From Escherichia phage phiP4, in the sequence record PP993145.1: DNA of 64,000 nucleotides; one strand, given 5' to 3'. Made by a program: the position numbers and the translations under genes. The first letter of the stretch is position 1; the number at the start of each line of letters is the position of its first letter. The notes beneath the pieces were generated by a model, which made no database searches, was not told where the DNA came from, and was given only the letters and a program-made list of their open reading frames with translations. Shown here piece after piece: positions 11,401 to 33,664 of this stretch.

Positions 11401-11477
11401 TGGGGTGGCTAGTGGAATTCGAATCCACATAGGCCTGATTCACAATCAGGATCATTAACCAATTATGATATAGCCAC
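11401..11477 (-). tRNA. tRNA-His (GUG)
   Basis: Acceptor GTGGCTA/TAGCCAC, discriminator C, anticodon arm CCTGA-TTGTGAA-TCAGG, T-arm GTGGA-TTCGAAT-TCCAC. Confidence 0.65.
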
Positions 11478-11704
11478 AATTGAAAACTCGCAGGGTTAGC
11501 GAAACCTTCCTCAATTAGCATGTTCTAGAATACTAATCAAGTTATCTCCTATTGCACGCAGCTCAAGACGAGTACGAATTTTCAATTGTGGCGGCTCTCA
11601 GAAACTCTTCTACTCTAGCTTTAGCAGCTTACTCCCGAACGCATGTCGGGGAAGTCTTACCAAGAGCATCAAATAGCACCGTTACACTTTGAGCCATAGA
11701 TGTA

Positions 11705-11800
11705 TCAAGAAGCAGAAGGATTTGAACCTTCACGAGATAGACCAGTTATCTCAGCCGCTTTATGAGGTATGTTGCAGGGAGTGGATGTTCCCTATAAACC
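11705..11800 (-). ncRNA. tRNA-like element, not foldable as a canonical tRNA
   Basis: Perfect T-arm GAAGG-TTCAAAT-CCTTC at 11716-11732 but no complementary 5' acceptor strand found within 100 nt; bounds are a guess. Confidence 0.25.
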
Positions 11801-12040
11801 TTTTAGGCAGCCCCGTCTACCGATTCCGGCATACTTCAAGAATTTTTTATAAACCAGCAGAAGCCTCATTTAAAGCATCAACAATAGCTTCACGTTGGGT
11901 CATTCCATACCCGGTGGAATCTAGGTGTGGCAAATAAGCCATCCATCCCTTATCTGTTTCATGAAGACATGCTTTAAATTTTTTACCATCCTTCATTGTT
12001 ACAGTAACTGTTTTGCTCATAAGATTTCCTTATAGTTAAT

Positions 12041-12510: not shown

Positions 12511-12601
12511 TGGCGGAAGAGGAGAGATTTGAACTCTCAAGCCGTTTTACCAGTCAGCCACTTTCCAAGCGGTTTTCGTCACCAATTCGATTTGCTCTTC
12601 C
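12511..12601 (-). tRNA. tRNA-Ser (GGA), type II
   Basis: Acceptor GGAAGAG/CTCTTCC, anticodon region CCGC-TTGGAAA-GTGG resembling E. coli tRNA-Ser GGA, long variable arm, 91 nt. Confidence 0.55.
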
Positions 12602-12611
12602 AATAATAAGA

Positions 12612-12706
12612 TGATGCCTCTATCACACCAGGCAGTTACGCCTCGCTGGGATTCGAACCCATTAAAACAGCTCAACCGAGATAGTAGGTTTAATTTACTC
12701 TGACCA
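12612..12706 (-). ncRNA. tRNA-like element / degenerate tRNA
   Basis: T-arm-like TGGG-TTCGAAT-CCCA at 12646-12662 without an adjacent acceptor stem; distal ends (12612-12618 and 12700-12706) are partly complementary. Confidence 0.25.
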
Positions 12707-12713
12707 TCAAATT

Positions 12714-12790
12714 TGGTGCGTGACAAGGGATTCGAACCCTCAAAACCCGACTTCTAAGGACGGTATGTATGCCAATTCCATCAATCACGC
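12714..12790 (-). tRNA. tRNA, anticodon UAG (Leu-type anticodon, short variable arm)
   Basis: Acceptor GCGTGAT/GTCACGC, T-arm GAGGG-TTCGAAT-CCCTT, anticodon loop CTTAGAA; anticodon stem has one mismatch. Confidence 0.45.
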
Positions 12791-12795
12791 ATATT

Positions 12796-12874
12796 TGGTG
12801 GAGAATAACGGAATCGAACCGTTCTGATGTCCTCGGTGCAAGCGAGGTGTCCACTCCATGCAGACCCATTCCCC
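12796..12874 (-). tRNA. tRNA-Ala (UGC)
   Basis: Acceptor GGGGAAT/ATTCTCC with G3-U70 pair, anticodon arm CCTCG-CTTGCAC-CGAGG. Confidence 0.65.
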
Positions 12875-12887
12875 AAATTCTTTAGTT

Positions 12888-13072
12888 TACTAAGGCTATT
12901 AGCTCGGCGTAACTACAGCACCTTCGCTTCGAGCGGAAGGAACTGCGTCATCTCGCAAACCCAATACACTATTCAGTTGCCGCTGAATCTAGTGGACCAA
13001 TCTAGAACTTCTCCCGAATCAGGGGGATCGTGCTTTTTGGCAGCCAGTCCTAGGTCGAGCTAATACCTTAGT
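12888..13072 (-). ncRNA. structured ORF-free element closed by terminal inverted repeat (candidate small RNA)
   Basis: About 16-nt inverted repeat taaggctattagctcg (12890-12906) / cgagctaatacctta (13055-13070) enclosing a GC-rich stretch with internal hairpins; strand not determined. Confidence 0.3.
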
Positions 13073-13159
13073 GAACTATGATGAGGATTTCTCCTCATCA
13101 ATTTATATAAATATTATAACAAGAAATTAAGCATCAAGCAACTGCGTTTTTTCTTGAAA

Positions 13160-13239
13160 TTGGTAGATCGCCTGGGACTCGAACCCAGAACCTTCCGATT
13201 AAAAGTCGGATGCTACTAAACCTATTGAGCTAGCGATCT
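13160..13239 (-). tRNA. tRNA-Lys (UUU)
   Basis: Acceptor AGATCGC/GCGATCT, anticodon arm TCCGA-CTTTTAA-TCGGA, T-arm CTGGG-TTCGAGT-CCCAG. Confidence 0.7.
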
Positions 13240-13588: not shown

Positions 13589-13797
13589 TTAATTTTTGTT
13601 AACTCACTTTATAAGATATATTATACAGAGAATTAAGCAGAATAGCAAATGAATTTTTAATAAATTTACTTATTGTGTAGGCCACCTAGAGGCTATGAAC
13701 CCCACGGCTGACAAAGAAGTTTGCGAGACTTCTCTTAAATGCCAGAATAGACCCGCCGATCTATCGGAACCTACATAATAAGTAAACTTTATAGTGT

Positions 13798-13918
13798 CAT
13801 TCTAGACAGGACTCGAACCTGTTATCACTTGTGCGGACTTACGAGAACCATTCTTTCACTCGAATCGAACGAGCTTCTGCCCTCGCCAAGCTGGTTTCCC
13901 CATCAACCACGCTAGAAT
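13798..13918 (-). ncRNA. unusual tRNA-like RNA of about 120 nt (tRNA with large insertion or novel tRNA-like ncRNA)
   Basis: Perfect 7-bp acceptor pairing between 13799-13805 and 13912-13918, perfect T-arm ACAGG-TTCGAGT-CCTGT, D-arm-like TGGT-loop-ACCA, but about 45 extra nt between D-arm and T-arm including a second T-arm-like hairpin. Confidence 0.4.
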
Positions 13919-14040
13919 GTTTGATTGTTTTCAGTGCAAGAGTCCGAGTCTTGGACACGACCGCTTCGCAAGTACATAGGCAGCTTATCATGAGTCAGCA
14001 CTTCCGAATTGCTAGCTCCGTGTTCTGCACTGAAATTTTA

Positions 14041-14685: not shown

Positions 14686-14787
14686 GCTTATTTCCTCAGT
14701 TATTAATGAAAATGGTATCTGTGGCTGAATTCGATGTCAGCAATGATAGCTGGTTGGCTACCGGTTTACTTAACTCTACACAGAATT

Positions 14788-17527: not shown

Positions 17528-17605
17528 TGGTGGCTCCCCGAGGATTCGAACCTACGTACCTTCCGGTTATGAGCCGGGTGCTCATACCATATGAGCTTGA
17601 GAACC
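17528..17605 (-). tRNA. tRNA, anticodon CAU (Met-type)
   Basis: Acceptor GGTTCTC/GGGAGCC, D-arm GCTC-ATATGGTAT-GAGC, anticodon arm CCGG-CTCATAA-CCGG; T-stem weak. Confidence 0.5.
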
Positions 17606-21296: not shown

Positions 21297-21798
21297 TTTA
21301 AGTATTTTTAAGAACTCTCGTAAAAACTCTTAAAAATACAGACGATACCGGGAGAGTCATAAGTCTCACTCATTAAGTATTTCAAGACAAAATACAGTAA
21401 CGTCTATTATTTTCCAGTTTAAGTCAAGGTGACTTAGTGGTTATGTCCTGCGGTATATTGAGGACTCGGTTAGGCTTGGGGTCATGACTTCCCGCCTTTT
21501 GCTGCTACTCAACAGGAGTTATCGCGAATTACCTGTGCTATTGTGCACCATTAGTGACATCTCTCATGTCAGCATTTCCCACTTTGTGGATAGCTTGAAA
21601 AACTACTCCGATATGGAGAAAGAACTTCACTATCCTAGAATACCTTCTAAAGTTCTTCTTTAGCCTGGACATAGTTAAATCGTAATAAAACTATTCAGCA
21701 GACTGGTTGGTTAGTCTGGAACCAACTACCGCGTGGTTTAGGCAGTGCGCAACTAACCTCGGAAGCTTTTACGTTAAAAGCATCAGTTATCCAGTTCT

Positions 21799-21870
21799 TA
21801 CCGACCGTAGGATTCGAACCTACATCTTCCACCAGTTACGGCTTGATAATACCAATTATACTAGGACGGC
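21799..21870 (-). ncRNA. tRNA-like element (possible pseudo-tRNA)
   Basis: T-arm GTAGG-TTCGAAT-CCTAC and near-complementary acceptor strands, but the anticodon arm does not fold. Confidence 0.3.
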
Positions 21871-22089
21871 AGTGTTACTACATAAGTGATTTCCACACCC
21901 CACTATTTATAAATTAGAGAAGAGTTTAAGGGAGAGGTTTCAGACGCCTCATTTTACACGTTCTAGCCACTAACCGGGATTGCCGCCCCCTGTGTACTAG
22001 TTTTACAACTAACCCACCGACTCTATTCAATGCGCTCCGGTTGGGATTCTGCACTCAGCGTAATCGGCTCGCTGTTCCCTAATTTATGA

Positions 22090-31333: not shown

Positions 31334-33664
31334 TTAAATAGTACAACCACCGGATGCACAACCTGCTGCTTCTTCTCCAGCACCTCCACCATTTGCAGTA
31401 TTGAAGTTAGCATAGTAGAAAGTTTTCCACCCATACTTAACAGCAGTCATGAAATCACGAACTACTACTGGGCCAGGAATGATTTCATTCTCAAACTTGG
31501 TGTAGTCATAGTACATATTCGTACTGATAGACTGGCTGAAGAATTTCTGCATAGTTGCTACCCACTTGATCCACTCGATACGATCTACATCATAAGCCAG
31601 TTTATAGCTCATTAACGTTTCCCAATCGGTTGCACCTGGAGCAATTGCAATTACTTTATTCACTGCACTACCCTTGATAGATACAATCTTACGAGGCGGT
31701 TCAATAGAGTTAGTAACACCTAACAGAACAGAAGAACTTTCTCCTGGCATCTGAGCAGTCAGAACAGAGTTACGCATACCATATTTCAGAATATCTGCAC
31801 GCAGAGACTCCCAATCCATTTCTAGACCTACGGATACCAGTTCATCAACAGTTTTCTTGTAAGTGTCGATTACCAGAATTCCTTTAGATGGTTTAGTACG
31901 ATCAAACCACTCACATGCACCCTGTTCTTTAGCTAGGCGTACAGAGGCTTTATGCAGAAAGTAAGACAGTTTTTCAGCCTCACGGTGAATCCAGTTACGG
32001 GCTTCAATACCTTCATAAGCCAGACCTTCTGCTGCCATTGCACCTGCTGCGTTCATCAGGCCAATACCAACATTACGACGTTTCTTAGCCGTATATTCCA
32101 TAGTTGGGAACGGATAATCCTGAATTTCAATAATTGTATCAACGAATTTCAGGAGGATGTAGCAAGTTTTTTCCCACTCAGCCAGAGATTCCATGCGTCC
32201 AAGTACAACACCACCTAAGTTACACAGAGATACTTCACCAATATCCTCCGGCTTCATTTGATCAAGCTGCTCTTTTGTCTTATACAGCTCTGTGATATGA
32301 TGGAACGGGCGTGTAGGCTGAGTAATTTCAACACAAAGGTTTGTCATACGGATCGGATCAAGGAAGTTACCGTGACGGTTAGATTCCCCGATGTGATGAG
32401 CGTACATACGTCCTGTTTCCATTCGGATACGTAGCCAAGTATCTAGGATTTCTTTTGCAGAGACTTTAGGAGCTGCAGGAACTGTTTTTCCTTCGTGGTC
32501 GATCTTTGTAAGAGATGCCACACGTTTCTCCGCTGCCACGTAGATTTCTTCAAATTTAGCCTCGTCATCACTATAAAACGCTTCATGAACTTCTGGAGCA
32601 TAGAAGTATGACATTAGCGTAATATCTTCGTTTTTAAGATAACGTTTTAACAAAAGATTGTTAAAGCTCAGAGAATAATCCATCTTATCGATTTTATTCT
32701 CATCTGTAGCACGTTGTTGCTTAACCTGCATCAATTGAATGATTTCAGGGTCGAAGTACGGATAAGACACTGTGGCAGAACCACCACGAGTTTGCTGAGT
32801 ATTGGCCTTTACTGAGCGGTCAATGTGTCGATAATATGGCAGTTTTCCGGAATGCGGGAATGCCCCATTTCGCACCGGATCAGCAATTGATCGGCTTTCA
32901 AGATGATACCCGATTCCCGCTCTGGCTGCGACCATTTTGAAGACGATGTGCTCGGCGGTGTCGATTGAATCCAACGTGTCAGTGGAATCCACGAGGCAGC
33001 AACTAGCAAATCCACGGTCACTAGAGCGCAGACCAACCAGTGGCGGCGTAGGAACGTTGATTTTGTGGAGTGACATTGCATTGTAGAGGTCGATTGCATC
33101 TAGAATTGTCCAGTTAGGTTGAGATAACATCGCCATTGCCATACCCATGTAGGCAAACTGCGGGGTTTCATAAATTTCACCAGTGGCTATGTTACGACGG
33201 GAATACTTATCAAAGAACTGTTTCAGCCCACCACTAGTAAAAAGACGGTCACGATCGTGGTCTATAACCTGATTCAGAGCTTCAAATTGCTCATCGGTAA
33301 TCCATGCACTCATGTCTTCCCATGCACCTACGCTAACCATATGGTCATGGAAGAAGCGTAGAGAGGGTGGTTCGAAAGAATCATAAAGGCGTTTACGCAT
33401 TTGCGCAAGACGTAATTCCTTTGCTGGCACATCGTATGCTGGATTATCTTTGATAAGACTTTCAGCAGCTTTAATTAATGCATCCATCAGAGTGTCGGAA
33501 TCTACAACCCCTTTAGGCAGAGTTTTTTGAGCAGCCATAGTAATGGCTGACCAACTTACATCAACTGTTTTGCAACCATACTCTGCCCAACCATTGAGTT
33601 TTTCAGGAGCAAAGTCTTCTACAGTACCGTCACGTTTAATTACTTTTTCAATGCGATGGCTCAT
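31334..33664 (-). CDS. nrdA: ribonucleotide reductase class I alpha subunit
   Basis: ATP-cone start MSHRIEKVIKRDG with RBS AAGGAAA; catalytic core including NLCVEI; upstream in-frame Met codons of the 811-aa ORF probably not used. Confidence 0.9.
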   Translation of the reverse strand: MSHRIEKVIKRDGTVEDFAPEKLNGWAEYGCKTVDVSWSAITMAAQKTLPKGVVDSDTLMDALIKAAESLIKDNPAYDVPAKELRLAQMRKRLYDSFEPPSLRFFHDHMVSVGAWEDMSAWITDEQFEALNQVIDHDRDRLFTSGGLKQFFDKYSRRNIATGEIYETPQFAYMGMAMAMLSQPNWTILDAIDLYNAMSLHKINVPTPPLVGLRSSDRGFASCCLVDSTDTLDSIDTAEHIVFKMVAARAGIGYHLESRSIADPVRNGAFPHSGKLPYYRHIDRSVKANTQQTRGGSATVSYPYFDPEIIQLMQVKQQRATDENKIDKMDYSLSFNNLLLKRYLKNEDITLMSYFYAPEVHEAFYSDDEAKFEEIYVAAEKRVASLTKIDHEGKTVPAAPKVSAKEILDTWLRIRMETGRMYAHHIGESNRHGNFLDPIRMTNLCVEITQPTRPFHHITELYKTKEQLDQMKPEDIGEVSLCNLGGVVLGRMESLAEWEKTCYILLKFVDTIIEIQDYPFPTMEYTAKKRRNVGIGLMNAAGAMAAEGLAYEGIEARNWIHREAEKLSYFLHKASVRLAKEQGACEWFDRTKPSKGILVIDTYKKTVDELVSVGLEMDWESLRADILKYGMRNSVLTAQMPGESSSVLLGVTNSIEPPRKIVSIKGSAVNKVIAIAPGATDWETLMSYKLAYDVDRIEWIKWVATMQKFFSQSISTNMYYDYTKFENEIIPGPVVVRDFMTAVKYGWKTFYYANFNTANGGGAGEEAAGCASGGCTI

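What the first reader, a model, noticed from the sequence alone, without database searches (positions are those of the whole stretch)
12888..13072. About 180-nt ORF-free element closed by a 15-16 nt terminal inverted repeat between tRNA-Ala and tRNA-Lys
taaggctattagctcg (12890-12906) and cgagctaatacctta (13055-13070) are reverse complements with one indel and would form a long closing helix. The interior is GC-richer than the genome and contains further hairpins (for example ccttcgc-ttcgag-cggaagg). A closed, bubble-containing RNA of this size resembles small regulatory RNAs such as 6S-like RNAs, but that is speculative.
Basis: partly seen in the sequence, partly recalled or inferred. Interest (0 to 1): 0.5.

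Follow-up and report, generated by a model that had tools for sequence, protein, structure and literature searches.

The report
Phage T5 stable RNA "RNA2H"

Summary
A 21-bp closing helix (12884-12906 with 13056-13077, one bulged G) encloses about 150 GC-rich bases between tRNA-Lys and tRNA-Ala.

The window is a T5-like phage. The element is 96% identical to T5 misc_RNA rna2H ("RNA2H, stable RNA with unknown functions"). It lies on the minus (tRNA) strand, just downstream of the P13b-type early promoter.

No Rfam family matches it. Homologues occur in eight Demerecviridae lineages: Tequintavirus, Epseptimavirus, KKP_3711, Sugarlandvirus, My1, DU_PP_V, PM135 and Providencia phages.

Covariation supports P1-P6 plus two pseudoknots, in which the 5' core strand pairs with the loops of hairpins P4 and P5. 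Across 18 representatives, 93.7% of cells are paired, against 73% in shuffles. PK1 is paired in every sequence.

The RNA ends annotated in T5 lie inside P1 and leave a 2-nt 3' overhang. The same holds for RNAIII and RNAIV. This points to RNase III excision, which is an inference.

Phage FFH1 has naturally lost the core, so it is not essential.

It is not 6S-like. The function is unknown. My best guess, at low confidence, is a trans-acting accessory RNA that binds a protein or acts as a decoy.

The parts
13113..13141 (-). Early promoter (T5 P13b type): -35 TTGCTT at 13141-13136, a 17-nt spacer, and -10 TATAAT at 13118-13113. The inferred transcription start is near 13106.
   Evidence: Sequence read. 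The T5 feature 'promoter P13b' maps to 13087-13151 at 98% identity. The same TTGCTT-N17-TATAAT consensus is annotated at this spot in AKFV33. Promoter-like sequences also precede the RNA in Sugarland-type, KKP_3711 and My1 phages.
13080..13099 (-). 5' leader hairpin (GAUGAGGA-GAAA-UCCUCAUC) between the inferred transcription start and P1.
   Evidence: A hairpin of different sequence sits at the same place in KKP_3711, My1, DU_PP_V and PM135/Providencia phages, and is absent in Sugarlandvirus.
12884..13077 (-). The whole structured element (194 nt; RNA position p = window 13078 - p), including the full closing helix P1.
   Evidence: The covariance model R1 scores 221.7 bits on the minus strand. 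In T5 the antisense strand scores only 31 bits against 226 for the sense strand.
12894..13065 (-). Equivalent of the 172-nt mature RNA2H as annotated in T5 (RNA positions 13-184).
   Evidence: T5 misc_RNA rna2H (31808-31979) maps here at 95.9% identity.
13056..13077 (-). P1 5' strand (RNA positions 1-22).
   Evidence: 99.7-99.9% paired, with 13 of 21 pairs showing compensatory changes.
12884..12906 (-). P1 3' strand (RNA positions 172-194). G182 (window 12896) is bulged in every lineage.
13045..13050 (-). Pseudoknot PK1, 5' strand (RNA 28-33, GGACUG).
   Evidence: Pairs with 12994-12999. 100% paired in 50 and in 18 sequences. Four of six pairs show double changes: GACU/AGUC, AGUC/GACU, AGCC/GGCU, AACC/GGUU.
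12994..12999 (-). Pseudoknot PK1, 3' strand (RNA 79-84, in the loop of hairpin P4).
13039..13042 (-). Pseudoknot PK2, 5' strand (RNA 36-39, UGCC), followed by a conserved A-tract (13034-13038).
   Evidence: Pairs with 12978-12981. The pairing is UGCC/GGCA here, ACCA/UGGU in Sugarland, UACCA/UGGUA in KKP and DU_PP_V, UUGC/GCAA in My1 and CGCCA/UGGCG in PM135.
12978..12981 (-). Pseudoknot PK2, 3' strand (RNA 97-100, in the loop of hairpin P5).
   Evidence: Support is weaker than for PK1.
12966..13033 (-). P2 domain. P2 (45-48 with 109-112) encloses the variable hairpin P3 (51-66), P4 (72-90) and P5 (91-106).
   Evidence: P2 changes to AUGC/GCAU in PM135. P4 changes from UCUAG/CUAGA to UCUGA/UCAGA in PMBT31 and SB13.
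12907..12956 (-). Variable hairpin P6 (RNA 122-171) with a 3-bp base (GCG/CGC, GUG/CAC or GAG/CUC) that abuts P1.
12714..12874 (-). tRNA-Ala(UGC) and tRNA-Leu(UAG), downstream on the same strand with no promoter or terminator detected between them and the RNA.

Best explanation
This is the window phage's orthologue of bacteriophage T5 RNA2H (rna2H, T5s04). It is a non-coding RNA gene on the minus strand, placed first after the early promoter P13b, with tRNA-Ala and tRNA-Leu following on the same strand.

Shown here:
- The RNA has a conserved fold: a 21-bp closing helix P1 with an invariant bulged G, a 4-bp helix P2 enclosing three hairpins (P3-P5), and a variable hairpin P6.
- There are two pseudoknots. 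The 5' core strand (positions 28-39) pairs first with the loop of P4 and then with the loop of P5.

Inferred:
- Host RNase III cuts both strands of P1 (after G12 and after C184). This releases a 172-nt RNA whose ends are protected in a 10-bp helix with a 2-nt 3' overhang, and frees the downstream tRNA precursor for RNase P.

Best guess:
- The released RNA acts in trans as an accessory factor, not essential for growth. It would bind or sequester a host or phage protein, for example a defence or RNA-processing factor.
- The reasoning is that its invariant core and pseudoknots are maintained by selection, while its peripheral hairpins are freely swapped.
For: Identity and context:
- 95.9% identical to T5 rna2H over 172 nt, with the same neighbours.
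- The T5 record calls it a stable RNA and annotates promoter P13b just upstream.

Strand:
- G.U pairs, and a CM score of 226 bits for sense against 31 for antisense, fix the RNA on the tRNA strand.

Structure, 45 copies:
- 96.6% of cells paired, against 87.0% in shuffles and 29-42% with slid partners.
- 28 pairs show changes on both sides.

Structure, 18 representatives of 8 lineages:
- 93.7% paired against 73.1% in shuffles.
- 48 of 61 pairs show double changes. PK1 is 100% paired.

Pseudoknots:
- They were not part of the covariance model, so the model could not have biased them.
- PK2 complementarity recurs with different sequences in at least five lineages.

Distribution:
- 426 phage records at E<=1e-3 with the window copy, and 506 at E<=1 with the SB13 copy.
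- CM hits in My1, PM135, DU_PP_V, PR1 and PSTCR5 at E from 1e-10 to 1e-28.

RNase III:
- The T5-annotated ends of RNA2H, RNAIII and RNAIV all lie inside stems of 20 bp or more and leave 2-nt 3' overhangs.

Accessory role:
- FFH1 has lost 126 nt of the core but keeps the promoter and P1.
- The T5 tRNA region is a deletable, anti-defence-rich region (PMC12483538; bioRxiv 10.1101/2023.03.15.532788).

Not coding: no conserved ORF.
Against: - No transcript data were available here. 'Stable RNA' rests on the T5 GenBank annotation, and I could not trace it to a paper.
- RNase III cleavage is inferred only from the annotated ends.
- No partner protein is known, and no conserved neighbouring protein gene was seen. 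The gene after the RNA is a tRNA in some lineages and an unrelated ORF in others.
- PK2 is only partly formed in Yersinia phage phiR2-01. It needs a one-base register shift in My1 and Sugarlandvirus.
- The position right after a promoter fits a cis-acting leader equally well.
Confidence: 0.5

Rival explanations
1. It is a cis-acting 5' leader. The fold would work on its own transcript, protecting the 5' end, guiding processing of the tRNA precursor, or making RNA polymerase resistant to termination across the long, largely untranslated tRNA array (as put or EAR RNAs do). Any stable product would be a by-product.
For: The RNA sits 0-35 nt after a promoter in T5-like, Epseptimavirus, Sugarland, KKP_3711 and My1 phages. 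Genes always follow on the same strand, and their identity varies. FFH1 lost the core but kept the promoter and P1.
Against: There is only one copy per genome, although the tRNA region has many promoters that lack it. In PM135 no promoter is visible within 160 nt upstream. A simple stabiliser would not need two covarying pseudoknots. The T5 record lists it as a discrete stable RNA.
Confidence: 0.2
2. It is a processing by-product. Only P1 matters, as an RNase III site that separates the leader from the tRNAs, and the interior has no function of its own.
For: RNAIII and RNAIV show the same pattern of ends inside a long stem. FFH1 is viable without the interior.
Against: The interior has invariant tracts and compensatory changes in six helices and two pseudoknots across eight lineages. 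That pattern requires selection on the fold. 412 of 426 matching records keep at least 80% of the element.
Confidence: 0.1
3. It is a catalytic or ligand-sensing RNA, either a self-cleaving ribozyme that frees itself from the tRNA transcript or a riboswitch-like sensor.
For: The architecture is typical of such RNAs: a conserved core, two pseudoknots and variable peripheral hairpins.
Against: No ribozyme or riboswitch model in Rfam matches. No terminator or RBS-sequestering platform follows it. P1 is a stable 21-bp helix, unlikely to switch. The annotated ends fit RNase III.
Confidence: 0.08
4. It is an RNA-only assembly.
For: Covariation cannot tell pairing within a molecule from pairing between molecules. 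ROOL and GOLLD are pseudoknotted RNAs encoded near phage tRNA islands and form homo-oligomeric cages (PMC12286853).
Against: The RNA is 3-5 times smaller. It does not match the ROOL or GOLLD models. Loop and linker lengths are compatible with ordinary H-type pseudoknots within one molecule (my inference from the sequence).
Confidence: 0.07
5. It is a 6S-like regulator of RNA polymerase.
For: Similar length (about 180 nt) and paired ends.
Against: No 6S model hit at E<=10 in six homologues. The fold is branched and pseudoknotted, not a rod with a central bubble.
Confidence: 0.03
6. It is not an RNA gene but a DNA-level element (a MITE-like terminal inverted repeat or a cruciform) or a small protein gene.
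For: Terminal inverted repeat. A mechanical 78-aa ORF overlaps it. Some GenBank records annotate 'hypothetical protein' over it.
Against: Single copy, fixed syntenic position and no target-site duplication. G.U pairs are strand-specific and the pseudoknots covary. No conserved reading frame.
Confidence: 0.02

Closest known systems
Bacteriophage T5 RNA2H (gene rna2H, locus T5s04, NC_005859 31808-31979)
   Same: Orthologue. It is 95.9% identical, on the same strand, with the same promoter (P13b) upstream and tRNA-Ala and tRNA-Leu downstream.
   Different: Nothing essential. The window phage lacks the tRNA-Val gene that T5 has upstream of the promoter. The T5 record gives no structure or function. 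The fold, the pseudoknots and the distribution described here are additions.
Other T5 'stable RNAs' of the tRNA region (RNAIII, RNAIV; also RNAI, RNA1-3, RNAX), and by analogy the T4 tRNA-cluster RNAs C and D (own knowledge)
   Same: Small stable RNAs of unknown function encoded among phage tRNA genes. RNAIII and RNAIV are also closed by stems of 18-20 bp, with annotated ends inside the stem that leave 2-nt 3' overhangs.
   Different: There is no detectable sequence or model similarity to RNA2H: R1 finds one copy per genome. They are shorter (about 105 nt). Their conservation was not examined.
RNase III processing stems (the stems flanking 16S and 23S rRNA, and T7 early-mRNA sites; own knowledge)
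   Same: A long, nearly perfect double helix formed by sequences flanking the product, with staggered ends and a 2-nt 3' overhang.
   Different: Here the excised interior is itself a conserved pseudoknotted RNA. Cleavage by RNase III has not been tested.
ROOL and GOLLD RNAs
   Same: Elaborate, pseudoknotted non-coding RNAs of unknown function encoded in phages and prophages near tRNA islands (PMC12286853).
   Different: They are 500-800+ nt against about 170-220 nt here, and occur in other host groups. The Rfam models do not match. Oligomerisation is unknown for RNA2H.
6S RNA
   Same: Similar length, with paired 5' and 3' ends.
   Different: 6S is a rod with a central bubble. RNA2H is branched with two pseudoknots and gives no model match.
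phi29 packaging RNA (pRNA) and Y RNA/YrlA (own knowledge)
   Same: Phage or bacterial RNAs in which the 5' and 3' ends form a long helix with a conserved bulge, while an inner domain carries loops that pair.
   Different: No sequence or model similarity (the Y_RNA models in Rfam do not hit). No tRNA-like module. T5 packaging is not known to need RNA, and the RNA2H core is dispensable in FFH1.

Membership tests
T5 RNA2H (rna2H) family | Sequence homology to the annotated T5 gene | tested here: met
   95.9% identity over all 172 nt. 96.5% over the 200 aligned bases of the 201-nt query (H60).
T5 RNA2H (rna2H) family | Same genomic context and strand: after promoter P13b, before tRNA-Ala and tRNA-Leu, on the tRNA strand | tested here: met
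T5 RNA2H (rna2H) family | Accumulates as a discrete stable RNA in infected cells | not testable with these tools
   Stated only in the T5 GenBank record. No paper was found.
6S RNA | Match to the 6S covariance models | tested here: not met
   No hit at the gathering threshold or at E<=10 in the window or in six homologues.
6S RNA | Rod-like double helix with a large central bubble | tested here: not met
   The covariation-supported fold has eight helices in two junctions plus two pseudoknots.
6S RNA | Binds sigma-70 RNA polymerase and templates pRNA | not testable with these tools
   Needs biochemistry.
tRNA / tmRNA / Y RNA (YrlA) | Detected by ARAGORN or by the Rfam tRNA, tmRNA or Y_RNA models; a tRNA-like module | tested here: not met
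   ARAGORN finds nothing at 12875-13160. Rfam gives no hit there at E<=10.
RNase III substrate | About two turns (20 bp or more) of double-stranded RNA | tested here: met
   P1 has 21 bp and is conserved through compensatory changes.
RNase III substrate | Product ends staggered with a 2-nt 3' overhang | tested here: met
   True of the ends annotated in T5 for RNA2H, RNAIII and RNAIV. Whether those ends were measured is unknown.
RNase III substrate | Cleaved by RNase III in vitro, and unprocessed in an rnc mutant | not testable with these tools
   Needs experiment.
H-type pseudoknotted RNA | Hairpin-loop bases pair with a distant single strand, shown by covariation | tested here: met
   PK1: 6 pairs, 100% paired, 4 with double changes. 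PK2: 4-5 pairs, with a different sequence in at least five lineages, but with exceptions.
Riboswitch | Expression platform (a terminator or RBS-sequestering helix) coupled to the aptamer | tested here: not met
   No terminator-like site on the minus strand downstream. P1 does not overlap an RBS. In three lineages an RBS lies 3-8 nt beyond P1 and remains free.
ROOL / GOLLD | Match to the Rfam models; length over 500 nt | tested here: not met
   The element is 172-220 nt.
MITE / transposable element | Several dispersed copies flanked by target-site duplications | tested here: not met
   One copy per genome. The same syntenic place in all lineages. No duplication in the window.

The most novel reading that the evidence does not exclude
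RNA2H is the founding member of a new class of compact, double-pseudoknotted phage RNAs that act in trans. It would either be a decoy or inhibitor of a bacterial defence or RNA-processing enzyme, or a self-assembling RNA particle, a miniature counterpart of ROOL and GOLLD in phage tRNA islands. This would give a first function to one of the T5 'stable RNAs', which the reference T5 record still lists as being of unknown function.
Probability: 0.2. Interest if true: 0.8.

Novelty: already known. Interest (0 to 1): 0.45.

Why it matters
The reference T5 genome record lists this RNA only as a stable RNA of unknown function. I found no paper or Rfam family describing it.

This analysis supplies three things that make the question testable in a model phage:
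- a covariation-backed fold with two pseudoknots;
- a likely maturation route, RNase III cutting in P1;
- the finding that the RNA is conserved across the enterobacterial Demerecviridae yet dispensable in a natural isolate.

The RNA lies in the tRNA-rich region that recent work treats as an anti-defence island, so an anti-defence or host-takeover role is plausible and could be screened. It also adds a small example to the pattern of elaborate non-coding RNAs sitting in phage tRNA islands (ROOL, GOLLD). If only the identity holds, the finding is ordinary: a correctly spotted, already annotated gene.

Tried and rejected
- Rfam at the gathering threshold on the whole window, and at E<=10 on the element and six homologues, gave only tRNAs and noise.
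- ARAGORN found no tRNA or tmRNA in the element.
- The pattern CCAAAAARCAC..AGTGTA..TTTG was scanned in metagenome contigs (46 loci) and genome contigs (20 loci). Every locus that was not T5-like or Sugarland-like failed the covariance model, so those were chance matches and no bacterial homologue emerged.
- blastn against 5,426 complete E. coli genomes gave no match.
- The 50-kb tRNA region of Vibrio phage IW18 gave no hit, even with filters off. The rest of that genome was not searched.
- R1 with filters off found no second copy or paralogue in T5, so RNA2 is not a homologue despite the name.
- RNAalifold proposed pairing the P5 loop (GCAA) with the UUUGC junction. I rejected it because it holds only in T5-like sequences.
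- I found no support for pairing the A-tract with UUU at 119-121. The variants CCACCAAG and CCAACAAG (L006, L009) have no compensating change.
- Coding potential was rejected.
- A MITE or target-duplication reading was rejected. In PM135 and Providencia phages the upstream 12-mer equals the P1 3' strand itself, not the downstream flank.
- Literature searches for RNA2H and T5 stable RNAs found nothing on this RNA.

Full report
**What is there.** The window is a T5-like phage. The region around the finding is 98-99% identical to many Tequintavirus genomes. The 22 tRNA genes ARAGORN found, and the three further tRNA matches from Rfam, are all on the minus strand. The element lies between tRNA-Lys (13161-13239) and tRNA-Ala (12796-12874).

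It is the inner part of a 21-bp helix, 12884-12906 with 13056-13077, with one bulged G and one C.A mismatch. Both strands fold better than shuffles, with z = -4.4 for the minus strand and -6.6 for the plus strand. GC is 0.49, against 0.39 for the window.

**It is already annotated.** In the T5 reference genome the homologous stretch is misc_RNA rna2H (T5s04), "RNA2H, stable RNA with unknown functions". It spans 31808-31979 on the minus strand. Promoter P13b lies just upstream and tRNA-Ala 19 nt downstream.

The T5 feature maps to window 12894-13065 at 95.9% identity, and P13b maps to 13087-13151. In the window I read these features:
- -35 TTGCTT at 13141-13136;
- -10 TATAAT at 13118-13113;
- an 8-bp leader hairpin at 13099-13080;
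- then P1.

I found no paper that mentions RNA2H. No Rfam family matches at gathering or at E<=10, either here or in six homologues.

**Relatives.**
- blastn with the window copy finds it in 426 phage records at E<=1e-3. Tequintavirus copies are at least 93% identical. Epseptimavirus copies are 70-83% identical, and most of them carry a roughly 22-nt insertion.
- blastn with the SB13 copy at E<=1 finds 506 records. This adds 81 Klebsiella (Sugarlandvirus) phages and Enterobacter phage KKP_3711.
- A covariance model built from 45 distinct copies (R1) then found it in further phages:
  - Yersinia phiR2-01, 212 bits;
  - Pectobacterium DU_PP_V, 101 bits;
  - Pectobacterium My1, 62 bits;
  - Providencia PSTCR5 and PR1, about 60 bits;
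  - Proteus PM135, 42 bits, E about 1e-10.
- It did not find it in the tRNA region of Vibrio phage IW18.
- Pattern hits in metagenomes and bacterial genomes outside these phages failed the model. E. coli genomes hold nothing similar.

**Structure.** I number the RNA 1-194 from window 13077 down to 12884. The helices are:
- P1: 1-22 with 172-194, with G182 bulged;
- P2: 45-48 with 109-112;
- P3: 51-54 with 63-66 (variable, expanded in Epseptimavirus and others);
- P4: 72-76 with 86-90;
- P5: 91-95 with 102-106;
- P6: 122-171 (variable, with a 3-bp base next to P1).

There are two pseudoknots:
- PK1: 28-33 with 79-84, in the P4 loop;
- PK2: 36-39 with 97-100, in the P5 loop.

The pair counts support this model:

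| Alignment | Cells paired | Shuffled | Slid partners | Pairs changed on both sides |
|---|---|---|---|---|
| 45 copies | 96.6% | 87.0% | 29-42% | 28 |
| 50 copies | 97.3% | 85.8% | 31-42% | 44 of 64 |
| 18 representatives of eight lineages | 93.7% | 73.1% | 34-41% | 48 of 61 |

No shuffle in 500 reached the observed values for percentage paired, pairs or cells changed on both sides, or covariation score.

PK1 is paired in every sequence. Its central four pairs read:
- GACU/AGUC in T5;
- AGUC/GACU in Sugarland B01;
- AGCC/GGCU in Uniso31;
- AGUC/GGCU in My1, with one G.U pair;
- AACC/GGUU in KKP_3711, DU_PP_V, PM135 and the Providencia phages.

RNAalifold found this helix unaided. The pseudoknots were not in the covariance model, so the model-fitted alignments do not favour them.

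PK2 is perfectly complementary but different in each lineage:
- UGCC/GGCA in T5;
- ACCA/UGGU in Sugarland;
- UACCA/UGGUA in KKP_3711 and DU_PP_V;
- UUGC/GCAA in My1;
- CGCCA/UGGCG in PM135.

Each PK2 case alone is weak, with shuffled loops doing as well in 2-23% of trials. The register shifts by one base in some lineages. PhiR2-01 keeps only 2-3 pairs. I rate PK1 as established and PK2 as probable.

G.U pairs fix the RNA on the minus strand: invariant G33.U79 in most lineages, and G45.U112. So does the model score of 226 bits for sense against 31 for antisense. There is no conserved reading frame.

**Maturation (inferred).** The ends annotated in T5 are U13 and C184. They lie inside P1, not at its ends. 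They leave a 10-bp terminal helix with a 2-nt 3' overhang next to the bulged G.

Two other T5 stable RNAs, RNAIII and RNAIV, are also enclosed by 18-20-bp inverted repeats. Their annotated ends also lie inside the stem with 2-nt 3' overhangs. From established knowledge of RNase III, this is its signature.

**Dispensability and context.**
- Phage FFH1 carries a 126-nt deletion between two GCTCGA repeats. It removes the whole core and leaves the promoter, leader hairpin and P1.
- The T5 tRNA region is a known hotspot of viable deletions (PMC12483538).
- An 8-kb deletion of a tRNA-rich region makes T5-like phages sensitive to retrons and AVAST. The authors call that region an anti-defence island (10.1101/2023.03.15.532788).
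- Whether RNA2H lies within that 8-kb deletion was not checked.
- Even so, 412 of 426 matching records keep at least 80% of the RNA.
- What follows the RNA varies between lineages:
  - tRNA-Ala in T5, Epseptimavirus and Sugarland;
  - tRNA-Leu(UAG) in My1 and DU_PP_V;
  - an unrelated small ORF in KKP_3711, PM135 and the Providencia phages.

**Interpretation.** The identity (T5 RNA2H orthologue) and the RNA-level fold are secure. The function is not known.

The pattern is an invariant core, two maintained pseudoknots and freely exchanged peripheral hairpins. P3 and P6 occur in different combinations in T5, TrudiRoth and STyj5-1. This is what one sees in RNAs that present a specific three-dimensional surface to a partner.

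Together with excision as a discrete RNA and dispensability in the laboratory, this makes a trans-acting accessory RNA my preferred reading. It would bind a protein or act as a decoy, possibly in defence evasion or host takeover. Confidence in that mechanism is low.

The main rival is a cis-acting promoter-proximal leader. The single copy per genome argues against it, since many promoters in the region lack such an element. So does the apparent lack of a nearby promoter in PM135.

The 6S analogy fails on both model match and architecture. A self-cleaving, ligand-sensing or self-assembling RNA is not excluded. The last would parallel ROOL and GOLLD, which are also encoded near phage tRNA islands (PMC12286853).

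**Verdict.** The feature is an already annotated but uncharacterised gene. What is new here is the fold with two pseudoknots, the probable RNase III maturation, and the distribution across eight Demerecviridae lineages. Interest is moderate.

Noticed in passing
window 11479-11584 (-), 11589-11695 (-), 11696-11840 (-), 13674-13776 (-), 13795-13919 (-), 14713-14785 (-), about 21297-21926 (-): The other T5 'stable RNAs of unknown function' (RNAIII, RNAI, RNA1, RNAIV, RNA2, RNA3, RNAX) are all present in the window at 84-100% identity to T5. None reaches an Rfam gathering score, apart from a tRNA match (21799-21870) inside the stretch that corresponds to RNAX.
   Followed up: partly
window 11473-11490 with 11575-11592, and 13662-13681 with 13770-13789: RNAIII and RNAIV are each enclosed by an 18-20-nt inverted repeat. 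Their T5-annotated ends lie inside that stem and leave 2-nt 3' overhangs, as for RNA2H. This suggests a common RNase III excision route for three unrelated RNAs.
   Followed up: partly
window 12514-12710 (-): Where T5 has tRNA-Ser(GGA) and the homing endonuclease gene hegC, the window has about 200 bases of tRNA-like remnants. These give a weak Rfam tRNA hit of 16 bits at 12514-12566.
   Followed up: no
window 17531-17605 (-) and 21799-21870 (-): Rfam calls tRNAs here (40 and 35.5 bits) that ARAGORN did not list.
   Followed up: no
L113 710-777 (Escherichia phage FFH1, NC_024139): A natural 126-nt deletion of the RNA2H core between two GCTCGA repeats. The promoter, leader hairpin and closing helix are kept as a 68-nt hairpin.
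   Followed up: yes
L111 19280-19304 (PM135); L137 2340-2364 and the corresponding place in L133 (Providencia phages): A 12-nt copy of the P1 3' strand (CUUUAAUYAACU) sits directly 5' of the P1 5' strand and makes a near-perfect palindrome. It could form a hairpin that competes with P1. The 150 nt upstream are also conserved and structured between PM135 and the Providencia phages.
   Followed up: partly
L110 14282-14363 (-) (Pectobacterium phage My1, JX195166): A tRNA is missing from the record's annotation: Rfam gives 41.9 bits, and the anticodon loop reads as Leu-UAG. It lies a few bases after the RNA2H homologue.
   Followed up: partly
phage collection: A few records named for unrelated hosts (Listeria phage LM 4-14-1, a 5.7-kb record, and two 'Campylobacter' phages) contain the T5-type RNA. 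They may be mislabelled or contaminating T5-like fragments.
   Followed up: no
L010 and L011 351-494 and 568-672 (PMBT31, SB13); several other records: Some GenBank records annotate short 'hypothetical protein' genes across RNA2H or antisense to it. Given the RNA-level conservation, these are probably false gene calls.
   Followed up: partly
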